From a virus (Duplodnaviria > Caudoviricetes): a DNA stretch of 64,000 nt. The notes below the pieces were generated by a model. It was not told where the DNA came from. It ran no database searches and was given only the letters and a program-made list of their open reading frames with translations. The stretch is from IMG/VR virus record IMGVR_UViG_3300037504_000149; one strand, written 5' to 3'. The position numbers and the translations under genes were made by a program. This document shows positions 2,745-54,883 of this stretch, piece by piece. Each line of letters opens with the position of its first letter. The stretch's first letter is position 1.

Positions 2745-2836
2745 TTTTTATGCGATAGAAGTTAACTAGTATAAAATTAAAGTAGAAAATAACTACATAA
2801 ACACTAATCAAACCTAAGATATGTAGTAAAATTTCC

Positions 2837-2865
2837 TTGACATTTTCAATTACTTTTGCTATACT
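2837..2865 (+). promoter_or_regulatory. sigma70-type promoter
   Basis: TTGACA-17-TATACT with extended TG. Confidence 0.8.
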
Positions 2866-2895
2866 GTTTGTGTTGGCATTCGTGACGGAGGGGAC

Positions 2896-3486
2896 ATGGG
2901 ATTATATTCTGCTAATTTGTCTACAAAAGTAGACTGGATCAAAGATCAGCATAATGCTGTAAACCATATGTACGGTGAGCATCCTTACACTTTTCATCTA
3001 AATGCGGCTGTTGAGGAAACTATTCATTGGTTTCACTTTTCTGAACCTATTAAAGACCATTTTCATATGTTATTTAAACAGCATGCTTTGGAAGAATTAG
3101 TTCTAGCAACGTGGGGGCATGATTTACTTGAAGATACCCATTGCTCCTATGATGATATCTATAAACATTTAGGTGTTCTTGTAGCAGAAATTATATTTGC
3201 AGTAACCAACAATAAAGGCCGTAATAGAAAAGAACGAGCTGATAAAAACTACTACAAAGGTATAATGACTACCCCTGGAGCAACATTAGTTAAATTGTGT
3301 GATAGAATCGCTAATGTCAAATATAGTAAAGAAACTGGTTCAAGTAAGTATTTTATGTACCGAACTGAGATGCCACATTTTATGGCTAGTTTGTTTCCGG
3401 TAACTACTGATAGGCGTTTTGCTTTATATTTTGATGTTATCACCCATCTTATGTCTCTTTTCGACGATTGGAGTTCTGATGCCTAA
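2896..3486 (+). CDS. HD-domain hydrolase, RelA/SpoT (p)ppGpp-hydrolase-like
   Basis: PYTFHL, GHDLLEDT, VKLCDRIAN motifs. Confidence 0.85.
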   Translation: MGLYSANLSTKVDWIKDQHNAVNHMYGEHPYTFHLNAAVEETIHWFHFSEPIKDHFHMLFKQHALEELVLATWGHDLLEDTHCSYDDIYKHLGVLVAEIIFAVTNNKGRNRKERADKNYYKGIMTTPGATLVKLCDRIANVKYSKETGSSKYFMYRTEMPHFMASLFPVTTDRRFALYFDVITHLMSLFDDWSSDA

Positions 3487-4435
3487 GCATATTTTTAAGC
3501 CGATGAAAGCTCCCTCCAAGGATCTACTCCGGCTGTTTAGTGATGAAAGTGATAAGTTTAATCCTGATAACTTCCCCTTTCAGAATTATGGTGCAAGTGT
3601 TAAATACGATGGTATCCGTGCTGAAATTTCAAATGGAGACATTCTTTCTGCACGTGGTAAAGCTCTAGGTAATAAACATTTCCATGAAGTATTTACACCT
3701 ATTTTTGAATGGTCTAAAGCAAACCCTACCATTCATGTAGAAGGTGAGTTATACCATCCTGATTTAACGTTTCAAGAGATCACTAGTATTGTCCGTTCTC
3801 ACGATGGAGAATTAGATAAACTTGAATTTCATGTGTTCGATTTCCAAGATATTAATATACCTGATAGGATTTTTAAAGAACGTTATTCTCTACTCCGTAG
3901 TCATGTAGAAGCTAATGAATGGGGTGAAGGTATAGTAGCTGTCGAGCAAGAAGTTTTACATAACTACGATGAGTTTTACCAATTATTCACTGATATTACT
4001 GAAGATGGTGGCGAGGGCTTGATGTTGAAAGCTTGGGATTCTCATTATAAATATGGTCGCGCCACTGTTAATCAGGGAACCTTTTTCAAAGTTAAAAAGT
4101 TCCTTACCGCAGACGTTACTATTACAGGATTTATTGAAGGAGAGAAACTAAAGGATGGTGCTGAGGTACGAAAAGGTTATTGGGATGGTCGTACTGAGCG
4201 TTCACGAAAGAAAGCTGACTATCAAAAATCAGGTACACTAGGTGCATTGATTGTGCAATTTGGTGAACATGAAGTTAGGGTAGGTTCTGGATTGAATGAT
4301 TCACTCCGTGAGAAAATATGGCGGAATCAACCTGAGTTTATCGGTCGTACTATTGAGATGCGTTATATGGATTGTGGGCGTAAAAACCTCCCCCGTTTCC
4401 CTACTTTTATTCGATTTAGAGAAGATAAGGATTAA
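3479..4435 (+). CDS. lig: ATP-dependent DNA ligase
   Basis: KYDGIR adenylation motif, EGELY, EGLMLK, LPRFPTF. Confidence 0.95.
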   Translation: MPKHIFKPMKAPSKDLLRLFSDESDKFNPDNFPFQNYGASVKYDGIRAEISNGDILSARGKALGNKHFHEVFTPIFEWSKANPTIHVEGELYHPDLTFQEITSIVRSHDGELDKLEFHVFDFQDINIPDRIFKERYSLLRSHVEANEWGEGIVAVEQEVLHNYDEFYQLFTDITEDGGEGLMLKAWDSHYKYGRATVNQGTFFKVKKFLTADVTITGFIEGEKLKDGAEVRKGYWDGRTERSRKKADYQKSGTLGALIVQFGEHEVRVGSGLNDSLREKIWRNQPEFIGRTIEMRYMDCGRKNLPRFPTFIRFREDKD

Positions 4436-9265: not shown

Positions 9266-9357
9266 GGAAGGGTTGACCCCAGTAGGTGCGGGAAGCAGTC
9301 TTGAAAACTGTTGATCGTTAACGCGATTTGTGGGTTCGAGTCCCACCCCTTCCGCCA
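9266..9357 (+). tRNA. tRNA-Ser(UGA)
   Basis: Cloverleaf, loop CTTGAAA, long variable arm, G73-CCA. Confidence 0.92.
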
Positions 9358-12150: not shown

Positions 12151-12530
12151 TATACGTAAGCGTATACATCAATTACAGCATTATTAGCTGAAAACTCTAG
12201 CTGGACATCTAGGCCATGTAAAACTTCATCGAACGCAAAAGCCCAATTATCTGCGCCATCAATTACTTCTGGGTATGAACTGGAAACACTGACTAAATTT
12301 GATGATGAGACACCTTCCTTAATATCTAATGTAGTAGCTACATTATTAGTTACAATTACAATACCTCGTAAACGTTTAAATAATGTTTTAGTGGTTAGCT
12401 CACTATAAGTAGATATCACTGTCGATAATTTATCAGATGTTACGGTCACACCATTTGGAATACTATAAGATGTTTGATTGATTAGTTCATAACGATGATC
12501 GATACTACTAAAAGGATTTAATGTAGGCAT
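12147..12530 (-). CDS. hypothetical protein (isolated minus-strand gene)
   Basis: AGGAG RBS before ATG at 12530; TGGTATAAT -10 at about 12561-12569 on minus strand. Confidence 0.7.
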   Translation of the reverse strand: MPTLNPFSSIDHRYELINQTSYSIPNGVTVTSDKLSTVISTYSELTTKTLFKRLRGIVIVTNNVATTLDIKEGVSSSNLVSVSSSYPEVIDGADNWAFAFDEVLHGLDVQLEFSANNAVIDVYAYVY

Positions 12531-12585
12531 GATTCTCCTGTTTGAATTGTTTTCGCTATAATTATACCACAACGCCCGAAAAATC

Positions 12586-12614
12586 TTGAAATTCCTAGCG
12601 ACGTATGTTATACT
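12586..12614 (+). promoter_or_regulatory. sigma70-type promoter for tRNA-Phe/Ile
   Basis: TTGAAA-17-TATACT with TG. Confidence 0.75.
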
Positions 12615-12627
12615 GTATTCGGATTAC

Positions 12628-12705
12628 GGTGAGGTAGCTCAGTAGGTAGAGCACCTGGTTGAAGCCCAGGGTACTGCGGGAGTTCGATTCTCCCCCTCAC
12701 CACCA
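12628..12705 (+). tRNA. tRNA-Phe(GAA)
   Basis: Cloverleaf, loop TTGAAGC, CCA. Confidence 0.92.
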
Positions 12706-26328: not shown

Positions 26329-27240
26329 ATGCCTTTCTTCGCCCCACCCAAAACTTTTCTAATCATAGATAGTTTTAACTCTATTTTTCGTAGTCACTAT
26401 GCGTATAAACGTAAGCCATTAACTTGTAAAATTGTAGAAGACGGCGAAGAACGTACACAAGTAGTGAGTGCACTTTATGGTACTTTACGTATTATCTCTT
26501 CCGCTATCCAAAATTACAAACCTGATAATTTTGTAGTGGTGTTAGATTCTAAAGGTGGTAACTTTAGGCATGAGCTTTTTCCTGAATACAAAAAACAACG
26601 AAAGCCTATTCCAGAGGAATTACCGTGGCAAATAAATAAACTAAAAGAAATTCTACCTACATTAGGTTGGCCTGTCGAAGCGATTAAAGGTTACGAAGCT
26701 GACGATATAATAGCTACTATAGTATCTAAGATAGAAGAAGAAGAAGATGACTATGAAACTTACATAATGTCTCAAGATAAGGATTTACTACAGTTAGTTA
26801 CGTATAATGTTAAACTTATTACACGTAGCACAAATAATCCTCAATATCAGCGTGATGGTATGTATGTTCAGGATCGTTATAATCTCCTAACTCCTCAGTT
26901 TCGCGATTACTTAGCTCTAAAAGGAGACGCATCAGATAACTTACCAGGAATTAAAGGTGTTGGAGAAAAAACTGCTACTAAGTTATTGAATAAGTATGGA
27001 GATTTAGAAGGTATTCTTGAAAACGCAGATAAGATAAAGGGTAAAATTGGTAAGCGTTTACAAGAAGGAGCAGATACCGCACGGCTGATGTATAAATTAG
27101 TTGGCCTTAAGACAGATGCACCAATTAGTCCTTTGGATGAATATGTTGTTGGTGAGCCAACTGAAGATGCTTTACGGTTGTTGTCTGAACTTGGATTTGT
27201 CAGTTTAATAGAGTCTATGGGTTTAGCAAGGGAATTCTAA
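26329..27240 (+). CDS. 5'-3' exonuclease / flap endonuclease (Pol I N-terminal-like)
   Basis: FRHELFPEYK, EADDIIAT, DKDLLQL, GDASDNLPGIKGVGEKTA. Confidence 0.95.
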   Translation: MPFFAPPKTFLIIDSFNSIFRSHYAYKRKPLTCKIVEDGEERTQVVSALYGTLRIISSAIQNYKPDNFVVVLDSKGGNFRHELFPEYKKQRKPIPEELPWQINKLKEILPTLGWPVEAIKGYEADDIIATIVSKIEEEEDDYETYIMSQDKDLLQLVTYNVKLITRSTNNPQYQRDGMYVQDRYNLLTPQFRDYLALKGDASDNLPGIKGVGEKTATKLLNKYGDLEGILENADKIKGKIGKRLQEGADTARLMYKLVGLKTDAPISPLDEYVVGEPTEDALRLLSELGFVSLIESMGLAREF

Positions 27241-28211
27241 TGATAAAACAACTTAGAGAACAGTTAATTAATCATCCCCTTAGTGGCAAGTTTATTTATG
27301 CTGCATTAAGTGGTTCACATCTGTATGGTACTGAAACTCCTACAAGTGATGTAGATGTTCGCGGTGTTTTTAAAGCAGACCTAGAAGATATCATTTTTCA
27401 GAAAGACGAGAAAGTTTACAGTTTTGATTTGATGTTAGATGGGGAGCGTGTAGATAATCAATTTACAGAATTTCGTAAATTTATATACGATGCTAGTATA
27501 GGTCAAACTTACGCTTTAGATATATTATTCGCTAATCCAGAATCAATAATCTACGTAGATCCACAGCTAGGTAGATTATTATTGAAACATAAAGATAAAT
27601 TATTATCCAGGAATATGTCAGCAATAGTACACTATTGTATAAACCAAGCGAAAAAATACACAGAACGTGGAAAAAAGTACAATACATATAAACAATTGCA
27701 GATATTTTTAAAACCTTTCAAACCTAACACTAAGTTGTGTGAAATAGATTTAGTTGATGCTCCAGTAGACATAGTGTCTAAAGTTAATAAAGGTACTGGT
27801 ATTGAAGAAGATTTTATTAGTATAGGAAATAAACTATTTCCTATGAATACTAAAGTAAACCAACTTCGTATGAGTTTGAAAACTACACTAGATAATTATG
27901 GAGATAGAGTTAAAGAAGCAGCTCAACAGGGTAAAGATTTTAAAGCTTTATCTCATGCTTATAGACTTGTTACTGAACTAGAAGAATTGTGGTTGACAGG
28001 TAAAATAACTTTCCCTCTTAAAAACCTAGAGTTTATTAAACAAATTAAACGTGGTGAGTACATATGTGATGATTATGGTAGCGAATTACATAATCATATT
28101 GATACTATCTTAGAACAACCAACAAAACTACCAGAAACTTACGATGAAGATTTTTGGAATAGTATTATCAAAAACGCATATATGTACCCTCAAAGTGACC
28201 CTCTGAAATAA
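27240..28211 (+). CDS. Pol-beta-superfamily nucleotidyltransferase (T4 NrdC.11-like)
   Basis: GSHLYGTETPTSDVDVRG; KALSHAYR. Confidence 0.85.
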   Translation: MIKQLREQLINHPLSGKFIYAALSGSHLYGTETPTSDVDVRGVFKADLEDIIFQKDEKVYSFDLMLDGERVDNQFTEFRKFIYDASIGQTYALDILFANPESIIYVDPQLGRLLLKHKDKLLSRNMSAIVHYCINQAKKYTERGKKYNTYKQLQIFLKPFKPNTKLCEIDLVDAPVDIVSKVNKGTGIEEDFISIGNKLFPMNTKVNQLRMSLKTTLDNYGDRVKEAAQQGKDFKALSHAYRLVTELEELWLTGKITFPLKNLEFIKQIKRGEYICDDYGSELHNHIDTILEQPTKLPETYDEDFWNSIIKNAYMYPQSDPLK

Positions 28212-31605: not shown

Positions 31606-33555
31606 ATGCCTGATAGAGAGCACTTGGAAAGCCCTTATCCTGATATCAACGAAGAGCGCCTTGCCAAGCTCAGGGAGCTTTTTCCTGAAGCGTTTACCGA
31701 GGGTAGACTTGATATTGACAAGCTGCGTGAAACCCTCGGAGAGCAAGTTAACACGGAGCCTGAACGCTATAACTTCACTTGGGCGGGCAAGCGAGACGCC
31801 TTAAATCAAATACGCAAGCCCTCCTGGGGTACGTTGGTTCCCGCTAAAGATGAATCTGTTGATTTCGACCATACCAAGCATATCTTCATCGAGGGTGAAA
31901 ATCTTGAAGTATTGAAGCTTTTGTACAAGTCATACTATGGTAGAGTGAAGATGATATACATAGACCCTCCCTATAATAAGGGAAAAGACCGTGTATATAG
32001 TGATAAGTGGGATGATCCCAAGGAATATTATCTTCAAGTTACGAGACAAAAAGACAGCGAAGGTAACCTGTTAACAACGAATACTGGTGCCGATGGTAGA
32101 TTGCATTCTAATTGGCTTAGTATGATGTATCCTCGTTTGTTTTTATCCAGACAACTATTAACAGACGATGGCATTTTAATTATATCCATTGATGAAGATG
32201 AACTTGTTAATGTTCAAAAACTATGTTGTGAAATATTTGGTGAAGAAAATGTGTTAGGTAACTTTCCTGTTATTATGAACTTAAAAGGAAATCAAGATGC
32301 TTTTGGTTTCGCAGAAACACATGAATATATTGTCATATGTGCAAAAAATAAACCTACTTGTACAATAAATAAATTTGATGTAAATGAAGAAGAGGTATTT
32401 AATAAATGGAAAGAAGATGAATATGGCTTGTATAAAGAGGCAGATAATCTAAGAGCAACAGGTATAAATGCACCCAGGTCTAAGAGACCTAATTTATATT
32501 ATCCTATCTTTCTTAATATAGGTACAAAAGAGTATTACGTTACACTAGATGATACTCCATTGAACGATAGTGACATTGCTATCTACCCAATAAATAAAAA
32601 CGGTGTTAAATTGTCATGGTATTGGAGTAAAGAGACATTTATAGCAAATAAGCATAATTTAATATTAAAGAAGACAACTAATGGTTGGCAATTTTATAGA
32701 AAACAACGTCCAGATATTGGAAATATACCGACAAAAAAGCCTAAGTCATTCTTTTATAAACCTGAATATAGTACAAGCACCGCGACAACAGATTTATTGA
32801 AACTAATGGGTAAAAAGGTGTTTAGTAATCCTAAACCTATTAAATTTATAGTTGATTTGATACGGCTTTGTTCCGATGACAATTCTTTAGTTCTTGATTA
32901 TTTTGCTGGTTCATCAACAACTGGTCATGCTATTTTCTATAATGCTTTATTAAATAGAGATAACCGGCATTTTATCTTGGTACAAATACCTGAAATATTA
33001 GATATTAATAATAATGACCAAAAAATAGCGGCACAGTATTGTATGGATATTGATAAGCCATGTAACATCGCGGAACTATCTAAAGAACGATTGAGGAAAG
33101 CTATTCAAGATTTTGCAGAAGAACCAATGTTATCAAACAGTCTTGGTTTCCGCGTTTTCAAACTCCAGCCCTCACATATCCGCAAGTGGCAACCTCTGCC
33201 TCCCGATACAACTCAAGAGGAATACCTAGCCCAGCTTGAACAAACGGGTGAACCGTTGTTAGACGGCTGGAACGTCGAGGAAGTGATCTATGAAATCATC
33301 CTCGCCGAAGGCTTATCACTAACCTCAAGGATCGAGCAAGTCCCCTGTGAAATGCAAAGAGTCTATAAGGTTGTTGATGATGAAAAACAGCAACACATTT
33401 ACATATGCCTTAACGATAGCATAGATTATGAGTATATTAAGTCGTTGAACTTGTCTGAAGATGATCGGTTTATTTGCCGCGATTCCGCCCTCGATGATAC
33501 AACAGTTGCTAACCTGGCGCTCATGTGCAGGGTTAAAACCATTAGCGAGTTATAG
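31606..33555 (+). CDS. mod: Type III R-M methyltransferase (Mod)
   Basis: ERYNFTWAGK, IYIDPPYN, HSNWLSMMYPRL, LDYFAGSSTT. Confidence 0.95.
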   Translation: MPDREHLESPYPDINEERLAKLRELFPEAFTEGRLDIDKLRETLGEQVNTEPERYNFTWAGKRDALNQIRKPSWGTLVPAKDESVDFDHTKHIFIEGENLEVLKLLYKSYYGRVKMIYIDPPYNKGKDRVYSDKWDDPKEYYLQVTRQKDSEGNLLTTNTGADGRLHSNWLSMMYPRLFLSRQLLTDDGILIISIDEDELVNVQKLCCEIFGEENVLGNFPVIMNLKGNQDAFGFAETHEYIVICAKNKPTCTINKFDVNEEEVFNKWKEDEYGLYKEADNLRATGINAPRSKRPNLYYPIFLNIGTKEYYVTLDDTPLNDSDIAIYPINKNGVKLSWYWSKETFIANKHNLILKKTTNGWQFYRKQRPDIGNIPTKKPKSFFYKPEYSTSTATTDLLKLMGKKVFSNPKPIKFIVDLIRLCSDDNSLVLDYFAGSSTTGHAIFYNALLNRDNRHFILVQIPEILDINNNDQKIAAQYCMDIDKPCNIAELSKERLRKAIQDFAEEPMLSNSLGFRVFKLQPSHIRKWQPLPPDTTQEEYLAQLEQTGEPLLDGWNVEEVIYEIILAEGLSLTSRIEQVPCEMQRVYKVVDDEKQQHIYICLNDSIDYEYIKSLNLSEDDRFICRDSALDDTTVANLALMCRVKTISEL

Positions 33556-33557
33556 CG

Positions 33558-36158
33558 ATGAAGTTCAAGTTTGACGCCAATATGGACTATCAGGTACAGG
33601 CAGTGCGGTCTGTAGTTGATCTTTTCAACGGTCAAGGCATGAATCGCGGTGACTTGATCTCGACAGACACTGCTCTGTTTACTGTACAAAACAGTCTAAG
33701 CCTTCCCGACGCGCACATTCTTGAAAACCTAGGAACAATCCAACAGGACAATAAACTAATCCAAGATGATGAGTTACTAAAAGAACCATTCGGTTTCCCT
33801 AACTTCACCGTCGAGATGGAAACAGGCACCGGTAAAACCTATGTATATATCCGCACGGCTTTAGAGCTTTATAGAACATATGGTTGGCGTAAGTTTATTA
33901 TCATCGTACCTAGTATAGCCATCAAGGAAGGGGTAACAAAAACGTTTGAGGTAACGAGAGAACACTTCGCCAATCTATTTGGTAACATTCCATACAAGTG
34001 GTATGCATACGATTCAAAGCGTCTTAGCGATGTGCGTAACTTTGCTTACAGTAATAGTGTCGAGTTCATGATTGTTACAATGCAGTCATTTAATGTTAGA
34101 GAAAAGGATAAGCGGATTATATATAACTACAGAGATGGGTTCCCGGAGAAACCAATTGATTTAATCCGTTCAACAAGGCCCATCTTGATTATGGATGAAC
34201 CTCAAAAGATGGGGGGTCAGATAACGACGGATAAGATAGCTGAATTCAATCCCTTGTTCGCACTTCGCTACTCTGCCACCCACAAGGATTATTATAACCT
34301 TGTCTATCGTTTATCTCCTTATGAAGCGTATCGTAAGGGTTTGGTTAAGAAGATCGAGGTCGCAGCGATAACAACTCATAGGGCTACCGGTAGTCCACTT
34401 ATCGTTGTAGAAAAACTAGCATCTCGTAAAACCTCGATTAAGGCGACCCTACGAGTTAATAAACTGTTAAAAAAAGACGATATTCAAGAAAAAGAGATAA
34501 CTGTTGAACTAGGTGATGACTTAGAAACTATTACTAATCTTGGTCAGTATGAAGGTTATGTCGTGGACGAGATCAACATAAGAGAAGGGTTTATATCATT
34601 TCATAATGGTGTAAGAATAATGAAAGGCGAGGGGATAGGCGACAATAAAGAAGAGATATTTCGTATGCAGATACGAGAGACTATAAAGGAGCACTTTTCC
34701 AAACAATATAAATTAATAGATACGGGTATAAAAGTTATGAGTCTGTTCTTTATTGATAAAGTGGCAAACTTTATAGATGATGAAGGCATTATAAGACGAG
34801 CATTCATTGAAGCATTTAATGAGCTAAAGAAGGGTGAATGGACTAAATATGAACCAGAAGATGTTTGGGGTTATTATTTCTCAGAGCAATCCAAGGGTAA
34901 ATATAAGGATACCGGAGGCAGTACACAAAAGGATGAAGACACGTACAACTTAATCATGCGGGATAAGGAAAGGCTGCTGTCCTTCAATGAACCGCGCTGT
35001 TTCATCTTTTCACATTCAGCCCTTCGAGAAGGCTGGGACAATCCAAATGTTTTCCAGATATGCACATTGAATACAACAAAATCTGATATGAAGAAGAGAC
35101 AAGAGATCGGGCGGGGAGTAAGACTCGCTGTAGATCAGGCTGGTAATAGGCTATTTGATGGAGAAGTAAACAAACTCACTGTTTTTGCCAATGAGAGTTA
35201 TGAATCGTATATTGAGACTTTACAGAATGAGATTGAAGAAGAAGGTGGGGATACATCCCATGTTAAGGAAATGGTTAAGGATCATCGAGAGAGAGTTGTA
35301 CTGAAACGCAAGAAGCTTACTCCTGAATTTGAAGCCCTATGGAATCGAATTAAGCAGAGAACTCGATACTCAGTGTACATTGATACTACCCGGTTAATAA
35401 CTAATGTCGTACAGGATTTATTAGAAGAAGGTGTATCCACTCCAAGTATTGTTATGCGTAGGGCAACTGTAGAATTGGAGGATGATTCTTCCGGTCTCTT
35501 CGGAGCTCCTTCAGTTGCAAAACACCTTGGATCACTGGAGCGAAAAGAGCCTTATTCTGATGTGATAGCTGATTTGTTGCACCATCTTCAATATAATAAA
35601 CCTCCATTGCACATAAGTCGCAATACACTATTAAACATCATACAAGAAGTATCAGGTAATCTAAATATACTAGATAATCCATCACAGTTTGTGTTATCCA
35701 CTTCTCGATTCATTAAGAATAGGGTTGCAGAGGAACTTATCAATGGTATAAAATATGAAAAAATGGAAGCATATTATGAGATGGCCCAAGTATTTGAAGA
35801 AGAGGTTGAAACATGGGGTGACCTTGTTTTAAGGGCAGAGAAATCTATATACGATCAAGTATATATTGAAAGTAATATTGAGGAGACATTTGCAAGAAAG
35901 CTGGATAGCTTTCCGCGTATAAAGTTGTTTGTTAAGTTGCCCCGGAAGTTCAAAGTTGGAACACCTGTCGGGGACTATAATCCTGATTGGGCAATTATAG
36001 TTGATGATGAAGATCAACCCGAGACTGAATGTAATCGGTTATATCTTATTGCAGAAACAAAAGGTACAAATAGGATTGAGGAACTACGAACAGACGAACA
36101 ACATAAAATCAAATGCGGACAGAAGCATTTTGAAGAGTTTGAGGATGTTACGTTTTAG
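33558..36158 (+). CDS. res: Type III restriction endonuclease/helicase (Res), C-terminus probably frameshifted
   Basis: METGTGKT, DEPQ, LRYSATH, EGWDNPNVFQIC, QEIGRGVR, YNPDWA...ETKG. Confidence 0.93.
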   Translation: MKFKFDANMDYQVQAVRSVVDLFNGQGMNRGDLISTDTALFTVQNSLSLPDAHILENLGTIQQDNKLIQDDELLKEPFGFPNFTVEMETGTGKTYVYIRTALELYRTYGWRKFIIIVPSIAIKEGVTKTFEVTREHFANLFGNIPYKWYAYDSKRLSDVRNFAYSNSVEFMIVTMQSFNVREKDKRIIYNYRDGFPEKPIDLIRSTRPILIMDEPQKMGGQITTDKIAEFNPLFALRYSATHKDYYNLVYRLSPYEAYRKGLVKKIEVAAITTHRATGSPLIVVEKLASRKTSIKATLRVNKLLKKDDIQEKEITVELGDDLETITNLGQYEGYVVDEINIREGFISFHNGVRIMKGEGIGDNKEEIFRMQIRETIKEHFSKQYKLIDTGIKVMSLFFIDKVANFIDDEGIIRRAFIEAFNELKKGEWTKYEPEDVWGYYFSEQSKGKYKDTGGSTQKDEDTYNLIMRDKERLLSFNEPRCFIFSHSALREGWDNPNVFQICTLNTTKSDMKKRQEIGRGVRLAVDQAGNRLFDGEVNKLTVFANESYESYIETLQNEIEEEGGDTSHVKEMVKDHRERVVLKRKKLTPEFEALWNRIKQRTRYSVYIDTTRLITNVVQDLLEEGVSTPSIVMRRATVELEDDSSGLFGAPSVAKHLGSLERKEPYSDVIADLLHHLQYNKPPLHISRNTLLNIIQEVSGNLNILDNPSQFVLSTSRFIKNRVAEELINGIKYEKMEAYYEMAQVFEEEVETWGDLVLRAEKSIYDQVYIESNIEETFARKLDSFPRIKLFVKLPRKFKVGTPVGDYNPDWAIIVDDEDQPETECNRLYLIAETKGTNRIEELRTDEQHKIKCGQKHFEEFEDVTF

Positions 36159-36312: not shown

Positions 36313-36451
36313 GCACTGGGTTTGTTAAGGGGATAGCTCCGAAATAATTTTGTCTTGGCTGGTTTTTTTCTAAAAGTTATGTTATACTGGTAGCACCAGT
36401 TGGCGAAGAATTTCTTCCCGTTCTGCGGGAACGACGAACTAAGGAGTAACT

Positions 36452-38170
36452 ATGTCTAGATTTAACAAAACAAAGAAGGATGTAGCCAAGACTAGAAACC
36501 ATGAAGGCGCAGTAGCTTATAACTTTCTTGATCCTAAGCTAAAGTTTATAAATACTGCTGCTGGTATGGGTTTCCTTTCTAGGGGTTTTTACCAAAGCGA
36601 GAAAGAACAATTAGATACATTGCTAGAGATGGTACGCGAAAACCCTGAGTTTGCCGCTACTGTTGCAGCGCATCTTCGTAACGATCACAATTACCGTACT
36701 GTACCTTTAATCATTTTAGCTGCGTTAACAAAAACACACAACGTAAGGAAGTTAGTGCCTTATGTTGTTAAACGCGCAGACGAGATGGCTGAAGTGTTAG
36801 CAATCTACAAGTATCTTTGGGGTAACGATACTTTGGCTAACTATACTAGTAAAGGATTATTAAAGGGCATCAAAGATGTAACTCACAACTTTGATCGTTA
36901 CCAATACGCTAAGTATAACAGAACTAAGGCTGAAGTTACATTACGCGATGTGTTGCGTTTAGTACATCCTCGTCCTAAAGATGAGGAACATGACGCAATC
37001 TTTGAAGAGATCATTAACGGAACACTTGCTGCTCCGCCTACGTGGGAAGTTATCCTTTCTGCGGCAGGTGAGAAGAGTAAAGAAGCTAAGTTAAAGGCTT
37101 TGACTCCACTAGTGGAGAGTATAAGCTCTCGTGGTAAATTACCTAGTGAGTGGCAAAACTTGCCAGCAACACTAACAGATGAGCCTATGACTAAGAGGGA
37201 TGCTTGGAACCTTATCTTATCATTAGGTAAGCGTTTCCCTTATATGGCTGCTCTACGTAACTTGCGTAACATCGTAGATGCGGGTGTTTCTGAAAACAGG
37301 ATCAAGGCATTAGCAGATAGACTAGCTGATCCTTGTCAAGTATCTCGCAGTAAGCAGCTACCTTTCCGGTATCTATCAGCAGCTAAAGCGCTGGTAGGTT
37401 ATGGTGGTTTTGATGGTGATACAGGCGCTTTTGATAGAATTAGCACAGATAGAGTGTCTGAAAGCACTATCAACTACGTCATTGCTAAGTTAGAGGATGC
37501 TGTACGGTTATCTGCGGATAACTTGCCTAAGTACGAGGGTTCTACTGTTATCGGTTGTGATGTTAGTGGTTCTATGGATACTCCTATCTCCCACCATAGC
37601 TCTATTAGGTTGTATGAGATAGGACTACTATTTGGTATACTTACATCTATCAGTAATCCCAACAATGCTGTTGGTGCTTTCGCTGAGTTAGCTGAGTTCT
37701 ACACGGCTGAAAACTTGAAGATGTTTGAAAACCATCCATTAAGAGCTGCTGCTAAAGCATATGATCAGATGGGGCATTTAGGTTACATGACTAATGGGCA
37801 TCTAGTGATTCACGCTTTACTAGATCTATACGAAAAGAAGCGTATAGGTACTGTAGATAGAGTGATTTTATTTACTGATATGCAGCTTTGGAATACGTCT
37901 AGGAGGTTCTCCTATGAAGATACCAAAGGACCACTACAGAAAGCATGGAATGCTTACAAAAAAGTGGCTCCTGACGCTAAGCTATACATCATCAACCTTG
38001 AAGGGTACACTACTTGTCCTGTCAATCCTGGGCGTGATGATGTAGTAAACTTCGCAGGATGGAGTGAAAACATACTCCGTTATATTGCCCAGTATGAAAA
38101 TTCTCGTGATGTCATCGACGAGATTTCTGCGAAGTATCCCTCTGAGAAATTAGTTTCTCGTTTAACTTGA
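36452..38170 (+). CDS. rsr: Ro60-related TROVE + vWA RNA-binding protein
   Basis: TRNHEG..AY, KRADEMAE, FDRYQYAKY, RDVLRLVHPRP, TWEV.LS, YMAALRNLRN, SKQLPFRY; vWA MIDAS DVSGSM, T, TDMQ. Confidence 0.95.
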   Translation: MSRFNKTKKDVAKTRNHEGAVAYNFLDPKLKFINTAAGMGFLSRGFYQSEKEQLDTLLEMVRENPEFAATVAAHLRNDHNYRTVPLIILAALTKTHNVRKLVPYVVKRADEMAEVLAIYKYLWGNDTLANYTSKGLLKGIKDVTHNFDRYQYAKYNRTKAEVTLRDVLRLVHPRPKDEEHDAIFEEIINGTLAAPPTWEVILSAAGEKSKEAKLKALTPLVESISSRGKLPSEWQNLPATLTDEPMTKRDAWNLILSLGKRFPYMAALRNLRNIVDAGVSENRIKALADRLADPCQVSRSKQLPFRYLSAAKALVGYGGFDGDTGAFDRISTDRVSESTINYVIAKLEDAVRLSADNLPKYEGSTVIGCDVSGSMDTPISHHSSIRLYEIGLLFGILTSISNPNNAVGAFAELAEFYTAENLKMFENHPLRAAAKAYDQMGHLGYMTNGHLVIHALLDLYEKKRIGTVDRVILFTDMQLWNTSRRFSYEDTKGPLQKAWNAYKKVAPDAKLYIINLEGYTTCPVNPGRDDVVNFAGWSENILRYIAQYENSRDVIDEISAKYPSEKLVSRLT

Positions 38171-38195
38171 AATTTCCGCTGAAGTGTGCTATACT
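38167..38195 (+). promoter_or_regulatory. sigma70-type promoter for pspA and the RNA cluster
   Basis: TTGAAA-17-TATACT with TG. Confidence 0.75.
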
Positions 38196-38232
38196 TATAG
38201 TACGCTAAACGCTAACACAAAGGAGTAAATGT

Positions 38233-38949
38233 ATGGCTAAGAAGGGTAACATTTTCGAGCGCATCGGCAACTTGATCAAGGCGACTATGAATCACCTCCT
38301 TGATAAAGCTGAGATGCCCGAGTATATGCTGAAGCAAGCAATCAAGGATATGCGGGATGAACAGCGTGGAATTACCGATGCGCTGCGTACCGTCAAGACG
38401 CAAATGATTCTTAACAAAAGGCAGATGGTTAGGAGTCGTGAAAGTGCTAAGATCGCTAAGGCTTACGTAGAAAAGTATCAGGACAGTCCTGATATCTCTG
38501 AGCGCATTCAAAACAACGTAGAGCTATCAGCAAGCAACTACGCCACACACATTAAAAACGCTCAGATGTGTAAGTCTAATCTGGAAGCTATGCAGGATAA
38601 GTATGATAAGCTTCTAGATGTTAGTGACAAGCTAGCGCTGATGATCGAGAAACTAGAGATGAGTGCTTCTCGATTGATTGCACAGCATAAAGCTGCTCAA
38701 AGCTTGAGAAAGGTTTACGAAGCGATGGCAGGTATCAACTACGGTGAAGCTATGGAAGTCTTCCAGCGGATGGAAGAACGCATCGAGCAGGAAGATGCTA
38801 TGGCTCAAGCCACTGCCGAAGTTGCAAGCGATCCGTCTCTGTCACCTGAGGCTGCTGAATTCATGAGCGGCACTGATGTGGATGGTCAAGTGGCCCTTGA
38901 CAAAATCTATAATGGTGAGGCAGACAGGGAAATTGCTGAACTAGAGTAG
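38233..38949 (+). CDS. pspA: PspA/IM30 (ESCRT-III-like) protein
   Basis: IFERIGNLIKATMNHLLDKAEMPEYMLKQAIKDM; FQRMEERIEQEDAMAQA. Confidence 0.88.
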   Translation: MAKKGNIFERIGNLIKATMNHLLDKAEMPEYMLKQAIKDMRDEQRGITDALRTVKTQMILNKRQMVRSRESAKIAKAYVEKYQDSPDISERIQNNVELSASNYATHIKNAQMCKSNLEAMQDKYDKLLDVSDKLALMIEKLEMSASRLIAQHKAAQSLRKVYEAMAGINYGEAMEVFQRMEERIEQEDAMAQATAEVASDPSLSPEAAEFMSGTDVDGQVALDKIYNGEADREIAELE

Positions 38950-38950
38950 A

Positions 38951-39093
38951 CCTTCCCATGCCTAATTGCGTGAGGCAAGCGAGGAATATAACACGCAAAG
39001 ATTAAAGTTGTGGCTAGGTAATATGTCGCCTTGAATAACTTTAATCACTTAAACACCAACGCTCATCGTGTTTAAGTTAAACTCCTCGCAAGG
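38951..39093 (+). ncRNA. putative pseudoknotted multi-stem ncRNA
   Basis: Five stems plus a 7-bp pseudoknot ttgcgtg/cacgcaa. Confidence 0.65.
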
Positions 39094-39098
39094 TTCTT

Positions 39099-39177
39099 AG
39101 TGGTAGCGTCGAAGGACGGAGTTACTTCGATTATAAAAGTCGGCACCCAAACTCTTTCCGCCTACTTACCTACCACT
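39099..39177 (+). ncRNA. Y RNA-like module 1 (short)
   Basis: Terminal stem agtggtag/ctaccact, GTCGAAG motif, GAGTTACTTCG, ACTTAC. Confidence 0.85.
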
Positions 39178-39181
39178 TTAT

Positions 39182-39333
39182 ATGAGAGCGTCGCAGTAAA
39201 GAGTTACTTCGCCTGCTAACTGGTAAGTTCTGGGTTCGAATCCCAGGGTGTACAACAAGTTTCACGAGACTTCGTACATCTAACTCAATGGTAGAGTAAC
39301 TAGAGAATCTCTTTACACCAACTTACCTCTCAT
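39182..39333 (+). ncRNA. yrlA: YrlA-type Y RNA with circularly permuted tRNA domain
   Basis: Stems atgagag/ctctcat and gtaaagag/ctctttac; T arm, acceptor, then D arm in permuted order. Confidence 0.92.
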
Positions 39334-39340
39334 TACCTAA

Positions 39341-39415
39341 ATGCGGACGCCGAAGTAGGGAGTTACTTCGTTTATTGGAAAACGCCTACTTCTCTCTACG
39401 CAACTTGCTTCGCAT
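39341..39415 (+). ncRNA. Y RNA-like module 3 (short)
   Basis: atgcgga/ttcgcat, GCCGAAG, gtagggag/ctctctac, GAGTTACTTCG, ACTTGC. Confidence 0.85.
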
Positions 39416-39419
39416 ACAC

Positions 39420-39487
39420 TGGCTATCGTCGATATGGATAGAGTTATAGTATTCCTCCAACACTAGACTCTTCCAATTACATAGCCA
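39420..39487 (+). ncRNA. Y RNA-like module 4 (divergent, CCTCC apical loop)
   Basis: tggctat/atagcca, CGTCGA, agagtt/gactct, ATTAC. Confidence 0.7.
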
Positions 39488-39494
39488 TCGAGTT

Positions 39495-39537
39495 AGGGTG
39501 AGGTAGACTTTCCTCCTTTCAACTACCTCACCCTCCA
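39495..39537 (+). ncRNA. perfect hairpin with anti-SD loop followed by CCA
   Basis: agggtgaggtag/ctacctcaccct, loop actttcctcctttcaa. Confidence 0.55.
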
Positions 39538-39541
39538 CTAC

Positions 39542-39629
39542 GGGCTAGTGGCGGAATTTTGGTAGACGCGCTGGTCTTAGGAACCAGTGGTCTTCGACCG
39601 TGAGGGTTCGACTCCCTCCTAGCCCACCA
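39542..39629 (+). tRNA. tRNA-Leu(UAG)
   Basis: Cloverleaf, loop CTTAGGA, variable arm, CCA. Confidence 0.93.
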
Positions 39630-39736
39630 ACCATAAATAACGTAAAATTACCTGAACTGAACGTGCTGTCAAAAATTGATTTCGAGTGCACGGTTAGAAA
39701 GTATGCACTCCTCGGGTACATAGATGAAGTATTTAA

Positions 39737-39810
39737 GGGGGCGTAGTATAACGGGATTACTCCTGCTTTGCACGCAGGGAATGGGGGTTCGATTCCCCCC
39801 GTCTCCACCA
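39737..39810 (+). tRNA. tRNA-Ala(UGC)
   Basis: G3:U70, loop TTTGCAC, CCA. Confidence 0.92.
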
Positions 39811-53668: not shown

Positions 53669-54883
53669 ATGTTTACTACTATTGATAAATATGATCTACC
53701 TATCCATATGTGGGTTGATCCTTCCACCCTGCTATCTGAAACTATCAAACAAGCTGCTAATGCTGCTAACCACCCCAGATCTGTAGGTGCAGTAGCTTTA
53801 ATGCCTGACACACATTGTGGTTATGGTGTTCCTATTGGGGCAGTTGTAGCTTATGAAGACGCAGTTGTACCTTATAATGTAGGGTCTGATGCTGGTTGTG
53901 GTATGGGGTATGTAGAAACTAACCTTCAAGTAGATCAAGTTTATGAAAAACTTCCTAATGGGAAAACGGTGTTAGAGGAAATCTATGCCATGATCCAAGA
54001 ACTTATCCCTGTAGGTTTTTCTAAGCACGATCACGCACAATATTGGCAAGGATTCTATAATGCGCCCAAACAGTCTAAAATCATCTCTAAGGAGCTTCCT
54101 AACGCGAAGAGGCAGTTAGGTACTCTTGGGGGAGGAAATCACTTTATAGAGCTTCAGAGGCGTTCTGACGGCAGGCTATGCATCATGCTCCACTCCGGTT
54201 CGCGACACCTTGGTAAAGCTCTTTGTGATTATTACAATAATCTTGCGAACGATCTTACTAGCTACCCACAGTTGAAAAAGCAGAAGCTTGCTTATTTAGA
54301 TGTACATTCAGATGCTGGAAAGGAATATCTTGCGGCTTTGACATTTGCTTTACGTTATGCTCACGAAAACCGTCAGCATATGATGGAAAACGTTAAAAAG
54401 AGTGTTTACGAAATATTCTTTAATAGATTAGGTATTGAGCCTAAATTTACAGATGAAGTAAATATACACCATAACTATACCTCTAAGGAACGTTGGTATG
54501 GTAAAGATGTGTGGGTACACCGTAAAGGCGCTATTTACGTACCTAAAGGTGCACGAGGAATTATACCTGGCTGTATGGGTACTGCTAGCTATATCGTTGA
54601 AGGATTAGGAAATAAGCTAAGTATGGATAGTGCATCTCATGGTGCTGGACGTACTATGGGCCGTGGTGCAGCTACTCGCAATCTCGATCCGAAAGAGCAG
54701 GAACGTAAAATGCAAGGCATTCTTTACCCTAGTTTTGTTAAGTCAAAGAAGAATGACAAAGTAAAGTATGATTTAGGTGAAGCTCCTGATAGCTATAAAG
54801 ACATTGAAGAAGTTATGGACAATCAGACCGATTTGGTAAAAATTGTCCATCGCTTAGAACCTATAGCTGTTCAAAAAGGTTAG
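53669..54883 (+). CDS. rtcB: RtcB RNA 2',3'-cyclic phosphate/5'-OH ligase
   Basis: MPDTHCGYGVPIG, DAGCG, GGGNHFIE, HSGSR, HHNY, HRKGA, SHGAGR, EAPDSYK. Confidence 0.96.
   Translation: MFTTIDKYDLPIHMWVDPSTLLSETIKQAANAANHPRSVGAVALMPDTHCGYGVPIGAVVAYEDAVVPYNVGSDAGCGMGYVETNLQVDQVYEKLPNGKTVLEEIYAMIQELIPVGFSKHDHAQYWQGFYNAPKQSKIISKELPNAKRQLGTLGGGNHFIELQRRSDGRLCIMLHSGSRHLGKALCDYYNNLANDLTSYPQLKKQKLAYLDVHSDAGKEYLAALTFALRYAHENRQHMMENVKKSVYEIFFNRLGIEPKFTDEVNIHHNYTSKERWYGKDVWVHRKGAIYVPKGARGIIPGCMGTASYIVEGLGNKLSMDSASHGAGRTMGRGAATRNLDPKEQERKMQGILYPSFVKSKKNDKVKYDLGEAPDSYKDIEEVMDNQTDLVKIVHRLEPIAVQKG

What the first reader, a model, noticed from the sequence alone, without database searches (positions are those of the whole stretch)
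36380..39810. Phage-encoded Ro60 with a tandem array of four Y RNAs carrying different payloads
Seen: a full TROVE+vWA gene (36452-38170), a promoter, pspA, then four adjacent self-closing RNAs at 39099-39177, 39182-39333, 39341-39415 and 39420-39487. Each has a 7-8 bp terminal stem of different sequence with compensated pairing, then CG(T/C)CGA/CGC, a second stem containing GAG, GTTACTTCG (exact in 3 of 4) and ACTT(A/G)C/ATTAC on the 3' strand. The scaffold is constant while the apical domain differs: a short stem-loop, a permuted tRNA, another stem-loop and a CCTCC loop. Established: bacterial Ro (Rsr) binds Y RNAs through a GNCGAA(N)G-type stem, YrlA RNAs mimic tRNA, and rsr-yrl is linked to rtcB in RNA-repair operons. 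Inference: this is a modular viral Ro-RNP kit in which one Ro protein is retargeted by interchangeable adaptor or decoy RNAs, probably against host tRNA/rRNA-cleaving defences, working with the phage RtcB and 30 tRNAs.
Basis: partly seen in the sequence, partly recalled or inferred. Interest (0 to 1): 0.93.

Follow-up and report, generated by a model that had tools for sequence, protein, structure and literature searches.

The report
Phage Ro60 gene with four Y RNAs
An uncultured jumbo phage from tidal-flat and salt-lake samples carries a gene for the ring-shaped RNA-binding protein Ro60 followed by four small partner "Y RNA" genes in a row; the RNAs are real and conserved, but Ro60 with several neighbouring Y RNAs is a known arrangement, and here the same arrays turned up beside Ro genes in other phages and in bacteria.

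Summary
Observation confirmed. 36452-38170 encodes a Ro60/Rsr orthologue: a Pfam TROVE hit, an intact MIDAS motif in the vWA domain, and a predicted fold that matches Ro60 structures. pspA follows, then four tightly packed RNA modules at the stated coordinates, then a CCUCC-loop hairpin and tRNA-Leu.

All four modules share one scaffold:
- a 7-8 bp closing stem that differs in every module;
- C-G-N-CG-(A/C)A-G;
- a second stem ending GAG/CUC;
- a UUACUUCG box (M4 has UUAUAG instead);
- a 3' ACUUNC motif.

A covariance model built from six short modules found the four held-out long modules and nothing else. A relative with 64% identical Ro has six such modules at the same place. Two relatives about 95% identical keep all four. 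Pair counts on 22 modules give 90% paired against 58% in shuffles.

Only M2 is a YrlA-type tRNA mimic, and it scores below Rfam's threshold.

The arrangement is not special to this phage. The same model finds 8 tandem modules beside the TROVE gene of Caulobacter phage CcrColossus, 3-4 in other viral contigs, and 4 to about 10 in Bacteroidota Ro loci. This scan has reported such arrays before on other DNA.

The "retargetable counter-defence kit" reading is untested inference. The verdict is a new member of a known kind. The lineage-specific extras are the pspA insertion and the anti-Shine-Dalgarno-like CCUCC loops.

The parts
36452..38170 (+). Ro60/Rsr orthologue (TROVE ring plus vWA domain), 572 aa
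   Evidence: Pfam TROVE 3.1e-17. PDB sequence hit to Thermus phage phiLo Ro60 9KOP at 2.3e-19 over residues 14-550. AlphaFold model pLDDT 86.7. Foldseek top hits are all Ro60: 1YVP 1.6e-16, 9KOP, 2NVO. MIDAS residues D370, S372, S374, T447 and D476 are invariant in 40 homologues.
38167..38195 (+). Sigma-70-like promoter (TTGAAA-17-TATACT, extended -10 TG) ahead of pspA; the only consensus promoter on this strand upstream of the RNA array
   Evidence: This is a consensus match only. The region holds fewer promoter-like sites than its shuffles.
38233..38949 (+). pspA (PspA/IM30 family), inserted between Ro and the RNA array
   Evidence: Pfam PF04012 1.5e-21. The same Ro-pspA-array order occurs in the relative with 64% identical Ro, L001, and in L188 and L189.
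38950..39098 (+). Structured leader between pspA and the first module; role unknown
   Evidence: MFE -46.2 kcal/mol, z = -4.9, 0 of 200 shuffles fold as well. No promoter-like site was found in it.
39099..39177 (+). Y RNA module M1: short type with an exact GUCGAAG motif
   Evidence: Segmentation. R1 score 80.5 bits, but M1 was in the training set. Conserved in L188 and L189.
39182..39333 (+). Y RNA module M2: YrlA type, with T arm, capped acceptor-like stem and D arm; motif GUCGCAG
   Evidence: Rfam YrlA 27.4 bits, E 0.0011 in a 661-nt search, below the gathering score of 69. Held out of model R1 yet found at 51.5 bits, E 6e-12.
39341..39415 (+). Y RNA module M3: short type with an exact GCCGAAG motif
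   Evidence: In L188 and L189 a G-U pair in the closing stem becomes A-U.
39420..39487 (+). Y RNA module M4: short type with motif GUCGAU, no UUACUUCG box, and a pyrimidine-rich apical loop UAUUCCUCCAACA (YrlB-like)
   Evidence: Fold z = -4.2. Closing stem 7/7 and second stem 7/7 with one bulged U. 100% identical in L188 and L189. It is the weakest member: it was in both training sets and has no orthologue in L001.
39491..39539 (+). Free-standing hairpin with the loop CUUUCCUCCUUUC (anti-Shine-Dalgarno-like); it has no Ro motif
   Evidence: Fold z = -4.1. L001 has two tandem copies at the same place. Of 12 pairs, 7 carry compensatory changes, and the loop UUUCCUCCUUU is invariant. 100% identical in L188 and L189.
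39542..39629 (+). tRNA-Leu(tag), directly after the array
   Evidence: ARAGORN and Rfam. The same tRNA follows the array in L001.
39737..39810 (+). tRNA-Ala(tgc)
53669..54883 (+). RtcB RNA ligase (context only, 14 kb downstream)
   Evidence: Pfam PF01139 4.4e-98.
27240..28211 (+). RlaP-like nucleotidyltransferase of RNA-repair pathways (context only)
   Evidence: Pfam PF10127 1.3e-06.

Best explanation
This is a phage copy of the Ro60/Y RNA ribonucleoprotein system. The phage makes a Ro60 (Rsr) ring protein and four cognate Y RNAs.

Proposed Ro-binding handle. Each RNA is closed by its own 7-8 bp terminal stem. The stem continues, after one unpaired C, into a short bulged helix. In that helix G pairs with C and the variable N of the GNCG motif pairs with the N' of the 3' ACUUN'C. 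CG is bulged out, and A(A)G pairs with (C)UU. By analogy with the GGUCCGA bulged helix of animal Y RNAs and the GNCGAAN0-1G motif of bacterial Y RNAs, this is the likely Ro-binding handle.

Variable part. Above the handle sits a second stem ending GAG/CUC, then the UUACUUCG box, then a different apical domain in each RNA. M2 carries a YrlA-type tRNA mimic. M1 and M3 carry small stem-loops. M4 carries a pyrimidine-rich CCUCC loop.

Expression. The array has no promoter of its own and 4-7 nt spacers. It is most likely transcribed with pspA and the downstream tRNAs and cut out of the precursor, as shown for M. smegmatis YrlA and YrlB.

Function. As in D. radiodurans, Salmonella and Thermus phage phiLo, the RNAs would gate Ro and tether it to partners such as host PNPase. 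During infection this would reshape decay, quality control or repair of structured RNAs.

Shown here: the protein family and fold, the RNA scaffold, covariation, synteny and recurrence. Inferred: Ro binding, processing, partners and any counter-defence role.
For: Protein:
- Pfam TROVE 3.1e-17.
- Sequence match to phiLo Ro60 over the full length.
- Confident model whose 12 best PDB matches are all Ro60 or Rsr.
- Intact MIDAS motif.

RNAs in this lineage:
- Closing-stem pairs 69/69 and second-stem pairs 68/70 across 10 modules, with unrelated stem sequences.
- Swapping stem partners between modules gives 3.5 of 7 pairs on average, and no swap is fully paired.
- Model R1, built from six short modules, finds the four held-out modules at 34.5-51.5 bits. 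The next-best hit in 79 kb scores 11.5 bits.

Covariation on 22 modules from 6 loci:
- 89.8% of cells pair against 58.3% in shuffles (0 of 500 shuffles reach it).
- Sliding the 3' partner by 1-3 columns gives 34-49%.
- The G-C pair of the handle is invariant. The N-N' pair shows all four Watson-Crick types: GC 11, UA 5, CG 3, AU 1.

Conservation:
- The 64% relative has six modules between pspA and tRNA-Leu(tag).
- In the ~95% relatives the array is 98% identical, against about 95% for the Ro-pspA-leader stretch (168 differences in the 3,288 bases laid).

Association with Ro elsewhere:
- The modules sit next to TROVE genes in IMG/VR contigs L066, L015, L038 and L060.
- They also sit beside Ro in CcrColossus, Atuin and Rabbitrun and in 10 bacterial Ro loci.

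M2 aligns to the T and D arms of Rfam YrlA with high posterior probability.

Literature: the GNCGAAN0-1G motif, at least two Y RNAs per species, processing from one precursor, and YrlB-type hairpins with pyrimidine-rich loops (PMC4201824). Phage Ro60 binds two phage Y RNAs and host PNPase (PMC12135203).
Against: - The Rfam YrlA hit on M2 is far below the gathering score (27.4 against 69). M1, M3 and M4 have no Rfam hit. However, the YrlA-bearing CcrColossus and the Bacteroidota arrays also stay below threshold, at 48 bits or less.
- Only M1 and M3 match GNCGAAN0-1G exactly. M2 and M4 each differ by one base.
- M4 lacks the UUACUUCG box and has no held-out support.
- In L188 and L189 the N of M1 changes from U to A without a compensating change, which breaks that pair.
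- The A5 alignment was fitted to the model's structure, so its pair counts lean towards that structure. The hand segmentation does not share this bias.
Confidence: 0.8

Rival explanations
1. The RNAs do bind Ro, but they act mainly as sponges or inhibitors rather than as adaptors with different targets. The RNPs would capture and attenuate a host nuclease such as PNPase, or another defence factor. Several modules would then simply raise the dose or broaden the host range.
For: phiLo Ro60 with Yrl1 or Yrl2 binds host PNPase and attenuates its activity (PMC12135203). The Ro60-like gp130 of phage Bas63 counters the Ppl defence system (PMC11482910). Module number varies freely: 4 in the window, 6 in L001 and 8 in CcrColossus.
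Against: The apical domains are not redundant copies. They differ in kind, and each is conserved: M4 is 100% identical in the ~95% relatives. No partner could be tested, and the host is unknown.
Confidence: 0.25
2. The modules are independent of Ro. They would be processing punctuation or stabilising structures of a polycistronic tRNA transcript, or tRNA-like decoys for anticodon nucleases, and only happen to lie near the Ro gene.
For: The array sits in a tRNA-rich region directly upstream of tRNA-Leu and tRNA-Ala. M2 contains tRNA parts. No promoter of its own was found.
Against: The same scaffold was found only next to TROVE genes, in unrelated phages and in bacteria that have no tRNA cluster there. 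None of the other 29 tRNA genes in the window has such a module. Three of the four modules have no tRNA-like part.
Confidence: 0.07
3. The modules are decayed tRNA genes or a selfish intergenic repeat with no function.
For: They are short, repeated and non-coding, and they lie among tRNA genes.
Against: Both stems covary fully while the unpaired motifs are conserved. The array is more conserved than the neighbouring coding sequence. The modules are not repeats of one another outside the scaffold.
Confidence: 0.02

Closest known systems
Bacterial Rsr with YrlA and YrlB (S. Typhimurium, M. smegmatis) and Yrn1 and Yrn2 (D. radiodurans); Chen et al. 2014, PMC4201824; Rfam RF02553
   Same: A Ro60 orthologue has several Y RNAs on the same strand within a few kb. 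A GNCGAAN0-1G-type motif lies near the 5' end and the two ends pair. One RNA carries T and D arms in permuted order (M2). Another is a hairpin with a pyrimidine-rich loop (M4). In M. smegmatis the RNAs are cut from one precursor.
   Different: There are four modules rather than the two characterised. Two of the four deviate from the motif by one base. The Rfam score is far below threshold. The Y RNAs lie downstream of Ro with pspA between them. The system sits in a phage and is not in an rtcBA operon: RtcB is 14 kb away.
Thermus phage phiLo Ro60 with Yrl1 and Yrl2 (PMC12135203; PDB 9KOP, 9L5Y)
   Same: A phage-encoded Ro60 with phage-encoded Y RNA-like partners that have a stem-bulge-stem layout and a CGAA motif. 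It is the best sequence match among solved structures (2.3e-19).
   Different: The proteins are only about 25% identical. phiLo has two RNAs, upstream of the gene. My model gives only weak hits in the phiLo locus (E 0.05-0.5). Binding and PNPase recruitment were shown for phiLo and are only inferred here.
Caulobacter phage CcrColossus TROVE gene gp139 and its upstream region
   Same: A jumbo phage with a TROVE gene and a tight tandem array on the same strand. The scaffold is the same: closing stem, G-G-CGU-AG, second stem, UACUUCG, UUCCCC. The array mixes short and tRNA-like modules.
   Different: It has eight modules, upstream of Ro. Six of them carry tRNA-like inserts. One is annotated as tRNA-Gln in the GenBank record. 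The sequence is GC-rich and has no CCUCC-loop payload.
Bacteroidota Ro loci (Hymenobacter, Roseivirga, Chitinophaga)
   Same: These are the closest bacterial Ro proteins, at 34-36% identity. Arrays of 4 to about 10 modules lie directly downstream of Ro, as in the window. The pattern UG(Y)CGUAG ... UACUUCG ... GUU(R)C is nearly the same, with the same N-N' covariation.
   Different: They are cellular, not phage. Most of their modules are 125-150 nt long and a few of them give sub-threshold YrlA hits, whereas three of the four window modules are short. There is no pspA and no CCUCC hairpin.

Membership tests
Ro60 / Rsr (TROVE + vWA) | TROVE (HEAT-repeat ring) domain | tested here: met
   Pfam PF05731 3.1e-17 against a cut-off of 23 bits. 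phmmer match to phiLo Ro60 over residues 14-550.
Ro60 / Rsr (TROVE + vWA) | Ring-plus-vWA fold like the solved Ro60 structures | tested here: met
   Model pLDDT 86.7, pTM 0.87. Foldseek: 1YVP E 1.6e-16 with TM 0.65/0.70; also 9KOP, 2I91 and 2NVO. The top 12 hits are all Ro60.
Ro60 / Rsr (TROVE + vWA) | vWA domain with a MIDAS motif (DxSxS ... T ... D) | tested here: met
   D370, S372, G373, S374, T447 and D476 are invariant across 40 homologues. The window sequence reads GCDVSGSM.
Ro60 / Rsr (TROVE + vWA) | Binds Y RNA on the outer ring surface | not testable with these tools
   No protein-RNA binding tool was available. This needs EMSA or co-purification.
Y RNA, YrlA subfamily (Rfam RF02553) | Reaches Rfam's gathering score | tested here: not met
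   M2 scores 27.4 bits against 69, and M1, M3 and M4 have no hit. The threshold is also missed by the CcrColossus array (42.3 bits) and by Bacteroidota arrays (48.4 bits or less).
Y RNA, YrlA subfamily (Rfam RF02553) | tRNA-like domain with near-invariant T and D arms in permuted order | tested here: met
   Met for M2 only. The T arm CUGGGUUCGAAUCCCAG and the D arm ACUCAAUGGUAGAGU align to the model with high posterior probability.
Bacterial Y RNA (general; Chen et al. 2014) | Encoded within about 4 kb of Ro on the same strand | tested here: met
   The modules lie 0.9-1.3 kb downstream of the Ro stop codon on the + strand.
Bacterial Y RNA (general; Chen et al. 2014) | GNCGAAN0-1G motif near the 5' end | tested here: inconclusive
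   The match is exact in M1 (GUCGAAG) and M3 (GCCGAAG). M2 (GUCGCAG) and M4 (GUCGAU) each differ by one base. In L001, 2 of 6 modules match exactly.
Bacterial Y RNA (general; Chen et al. 2014) | The 5' and 3' ends pair into a stem that carries the Ro site | tested here: met
   69/69 closing-stem pairs. All 7 closing-stem pairs have changes on both sides, and 95.9% of cells pair. The N-N' pair covaries with four pair types.
Bacterial Y RNA (general; Chen et al. 2014) | Accumulates as a discrete small RNA that depends on and binds Ro | not testable with these tools
   This needs Northern blots or small-RNA sequencing and co-purification with Ro, which no tool here provides.
YrlB / Yrn2-type Y RNA | [quoted passage not shown] | tested here: inconclusive
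   M4 folds into a long imperfect hairpin with the loop UAUUCCUCCAACA. YrlB has no conserved sequence to test against (PMC4201824).

The most novel reading that the evidence does not exclude
The CCUCC elements are functional mimics of the anti-Shine-Dalgarno 3' tail of 16S rRNA. They comprise the M4 apical loop and the free hairpin at 39491-39539, which is duplicated in L001 with an invariant UUUCCUCCUUU loop and compensated stems. One copy would be displayed on a Ro-binding handle and the others on plain hairpins. They could sponge Shine-Dalgarno sequences of mRNAs. Alternatively they could decoy or recruit factors that act on the 16S 3' end, bringing Ro or PNPase to them. Either would be a Y RNA payload of a kind not described before.
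Probability: 0.15. Interest if true: 0.7.

Novelty: new member of a known kind. Interest (0 to 1): 0.4.

Why it matters
The locus adds a well-supported, sequence-divergent phage example to the Ro60/Y RNA system. It also gives a clean comparative data set. The handle is defined by covariation: the N of GNCG pairs with the N' of the 3' ACUUN'C. The apical domains differ in kind between modules.

With the arrays found here in CcrColossus, Atuin, IMG/VR contigs and Bacteroidota, it shows that Ro loci often encode many more Y RNAs than the one or two characterised per species, and that most of them fall below Rfam's YrlA threshold. A broader covariance model would therefore annotate many currently unlabelled RNAs. 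Some are mislabelled at present, such as the CcrColossus module annotated as tRNA-Gln.

For phage biology, this is a tractable candidate for asking what a phage Ro RNP does during infection. Published hints are PNPase capture in phiLo and a counter to the Ppl defence in Bas63. It is not a new kind of system.

Tried and rejected
- Expression data: no RNA holder is listed among the public runs that hold this DNA, so nothing can be said about transcripts.
- Close relatives in phage collections: megablast against 50,697 phage records found no match. IMG/VR scans with Ro peptides and with the strict motif found nothing.
- Degenerate 23-nt motif scans: they returned 65 stretches in IMG/VR and at least 120 in metagenome contigs, each with a single match. 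By my own estimate most are what chance would give for a pattern of this size. The covariance model kept only a handful; L066, L015, L038 and L060 have tandem hits, and a TROVE gene was checked in L066 and L015.
- The genome-contig scan found only Ro relatives of 31-36% identity. No prophage or host clue emerged.
- No whole genome is held for this window.
- Model R2 found no modules beside the Ro genes of Halogranum virus HGTV-1 (the closest phage Ro, 33% identity), Vibrio phage Va1, crAss-like cr111_1 or the 635-kb phage LR745206. Their partner RNAs, if any, are too different for this model.
- No sigma-70-like promoter was found between pspA and M1.
- CCUCC loops are absent from the other phages' arrays, so they are not a general payload.
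- Two review papers on bacterial Y RNAs (PMC10870794, PMC6047535) are not held, and the supplementary tables of Chen et al. 2014 are not held. I therefore could not check whether arrays of four or more were listed there.
- The MAFFT alignment of the modules (A1) misplaced the 3' strand of the second stem, so I used hand segmentation and model-guided alignment instead.

Full report
**What is there**

The window is part of a 229,864-bp contig of an uncultured tailed phage. It carries a baseplate J gene, 31 tRNA genes, RtcB, an RlaP-like gene, DNA methylases and ThyX. The DNA comes from a tidal-flat metagenome. Relatives about 95% identical occur in hypersaline-lake metagenomes.

The locus runs as follows on the + strand:
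- ORF 36452-38170 (Ro).
- A promoter-like TTGAAA-17-TATACT site at 38167-38195.
- pspA at 38233-38949 (PF04012, 1.5e-21).
- A strongly structured 149-nt leader (z = -4.9).
- Four modules at 39099-39177, 39182-39333, 39341-39415 and 39420-39487.
- A hairpin at 39491-39539.
- tRNA-Leu(tag) and tRNA-Ala(tgc).

**The protein**

The 572-aa product hits Pfam TROVE (3.1e-17). It aligns over residues 14-550 with the crystallised Ro60 of Thermus phage phiLo (2.3e-19). A model built on 40 homologues (pLDDT 86.7) has as its 12 best PDB matches only Ro60 or Rsr structures: 1YVP at 1.6e-16 with TM 0.65-0.70, then 9KOP, 2I91 and 2NVO. The MIDAS residues of the vWA domain are invariant. It is a Ro60 orthologue.

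It is distant from known ones. The best phage match is 33% identical (Halogranum virus HGTV-1), and the best bacterial matches are about 35% identical (Bacteroidota).

**The RNAs**

My hand segmentation shows that all four modules, and the six at the same place in a relative, follow one plan:
- a closing stem of 5-8 bp;
- C-G-N-C-G-(A/C/U)-A-G;
- a 7-bp second stem whose top three pairs are GAG/CUC;
- the box (U/A/C)UACUUCG, which is UUAUAG in M4;
- a variable apical domain of 16-98 nt;
- a 3' linker ending in a variant of ACUUNC (UAUUGC, AGUUAC, CCUUAC or AAUUAC in some modules).

Closing-stem pairing is 69/69 and second-stem pairing is 68/70, although no two closing stems share sequence. If 5' strands are paired with other modules' 3' strands, the mean is 3.5 of 7 pairs and none of 72 combinations is fully paired. 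The motif is far above chance in the window.

**Independent tests**

A covariance model (R1) built only from the six short modules found the four long modules that were left out. M2 scored 51.5 bits and B, E and C scored 39.5, 38.0 and 34.5 bits. The next-best hit in 79 kb scored 11.5 bits.

The relative L001 (NCBI assembly contig) has a Ro protein 64% identical, the same Ro-pspA order, and tRNA-Leu(tag) after the array. It carries six modules, two of them with sub-threshold YrlA hits, and two copies of the CCUCC hairpin. Two contigs about 95% identical (L188, L189) keep all four modules. The array there is 98% identical, against about 95% for the Ro-pspA-leader stretch (168 differences in the 3,288 bases laid). 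M4 and the hairpin are unchanged.

On 22 modules from six loci, 89.8% of cells pair against 58.3% in shuffles (0 of 500 shuffles reach it). Sliding the partner columns gives 34-49%. Thirteen of 14 pairs have changes on both sides. That alignment was fitted to the model, so it leans towards the structure. The hand analysis does not share this bias.

**A refinement of the handle**

Adding the pairs G(9)-C and N(10)-N' shows that the first is invariant (21 of 21 rows). The second uses all four Watson-Crick types: GC 11, UA 5, CG 3, AU 1, with one exception. So the "N" of GNCG pairs with the second-last base of the 3' ACUUNC. CG is bulged and the following A pairs with U (17 of 21).

This resembles the bulged helix that Ro60 recognises in animal Y RNAs. 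It overlaps the GNCGAAN0-1G motif proposed as the Rsr site (PMC4201824). M1 and M3 match that motif exactly. M2 and M4 each differ by one base.

**Payloads**

M2 has a canonical T arm, a 7-bp acceptor-like stem capped by a hairpin, and a D arm. This is the YrlA order. Rfam YrlA aligns to both arms but scores only 27.4 bits against a gathering score of 69. M1 and M3 have small stem-loops. M4 has a pyrimidine-rich loop, UAUUCCUCCAACA, reminiscent of the YrlB/Yrn2 type described by Chen et al.

**Is it unusual?**

No. The motif scan plus the model found tandem modules beside TROVE genes in IMG/VR contigs. L066 has four, one of them YrlA-like. L015 and L038 have three. L060 has two at a contig end.

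A broader model (R2) finds eight tandem modules directly upstream of the TROVE gene of the cultured Caulobacter phage CcrColossus. One of them is annotated as tRNA-Gln. It also finds four or five modules in Arthrobacter phage Atuin and two in Gordonia phage Rabbitrun.

Ten bacterial Ro loci have 2 to about 10 modules, the Bacteroidota ones directly downstream of Ro and with the same scaffold and N-N' covariation. None of these reaches Rfam's threshold. Failing that threshold therefore says little.

**Literature**

- Chen et al. 2014 reported 355 YrlA-like RNAs in 254 bacteria and 22 phages. They listed multiple hits per locus and at least two Y RNAs in every species examined.
- phiLo Ro60 binds two phage Y RNAs and host PNPase.
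- Jumbo-phage TROVE genes are noted in PMC7824862.
- A Ro60-like protein of phage Bas63 counters the Ppl defence.
- I found no text describing arrays of four or more mixed modules. However, two reviews and the 2014 supplements were not readable here.

This scan has already reported phage Ro60 genes with Y RNA arrays on other DNA.

**Mechanism**

Shown: family, fold, scaffold, covariation, synteny and recurrence.

Inferred: the RNAs are cut from a pspA-array-tRNA transcript, because no promoter was found ahead of M1 and the spacers are 4-7 nt. They bind Ro through the bulged handle. Their different tops engage different partners. The link to RtcB (14 kb away) and to defence against tRNA or rRNA nucleases is plausible from the gene content but untested.

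**Lineage-specific extras**

Three features are specific to this lineage: pspA between Ro and the RNAs, only one tRNA-like module of four, and the CCUCC elements.

The hairpin loop UUUCCUCCUUU is invariant across three copies whose stems carry seven compensated pairs. Two of the three + strand TTCCTCC sites in the window are these loops. Other arrays lack them. The phage uses Shine-Dalgarno sites: 34 of 47 ORFs have a core motif upstream, against a 12% background. An anti-Shine-Dalgarno mimic is therefore conceivable, but it is only a lead.

**Verdict**

The functional story is untested. This is a new member of a known kind, of moderate interest.

Noticed in passing
window 39491-39539; L001 13383-13479: A free-standing hairpin lies between the Y RNA array and tRNA-Leu. 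Its invariant loop UUUCCUCCUUU is complementary to an extended Shine-Dalgarno sequence. It is duplicated in the relative, with 7 of 12 stem pairs compensated. It has no Ro motif.
   Followed up: partly
window 38950-39098: The 149-nt leader between pspA and M1 folds much better than its shuffles (z = -4.9). The corresponding L001 stretch (12522-12632) does not (z = -0.9), but it contains an unpaired CCCCUCCCUCC.
   Followed up: partly
L192 (Caulobacter phage CcrColossus JX100810.1) 2761-3956: Eight tandem Y RNA-like modules lie upstream of the TROVE gene gp139. The GenBank record annotates part of one (3173-3240) as tRNA-Gln and places 'terminators' inside the array.
   Followed up: partly
L200, L202, L203, L204 (Hymenobacter spp.), L199 (Roseivirga), L205 (Chitinophaga): Bacteroidota Ro genes are followed by 4 to about 10 tandem modules with the same scaffold. 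Only a few score as sub-threshold YrlA in Rfam.
   Followed up: partly
L015 3465-3597 (also L038, L060): In these IMG/VR phage contigs one module carries a tRNA-like body in the normal D-anticodon-T order (Rfam tRNA 43 bits at 3492-3554) rather than the permuted YrlA order.
   Followed up: no
window 31606-36158: Directly upstream of Ro lie an N6/N4 DNA methylase (649 aa) and an 866-aa ResIII helicase with a C-terminal restriction-endonuclease domain (PF19778, 2.6e-34). This looks like a phage-borne restriction-modification-like pair. The ~95% relative L188 has a ResIII and a methylase gene at the same place, but in the reverse order and with different lengths.
   Followed up: no
window 9266-9357: Rfam calls this tRNA-Sec (51.1 bits against a gathering score of 47). 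ARAGORN calls it tRNA-Ser with anticodon UGA. The long variable arm probably explains the Sec hit.
   Followed up: no
window, whole: Shine-Dalgarno cores precede 34 of 47 + strand ORFs, and GC content is 38%. The host therefore probably uses SD-led initiation, unlike the Bacteroidota that hold the nearest bacterial Ro proteins.
   Followed up: partly
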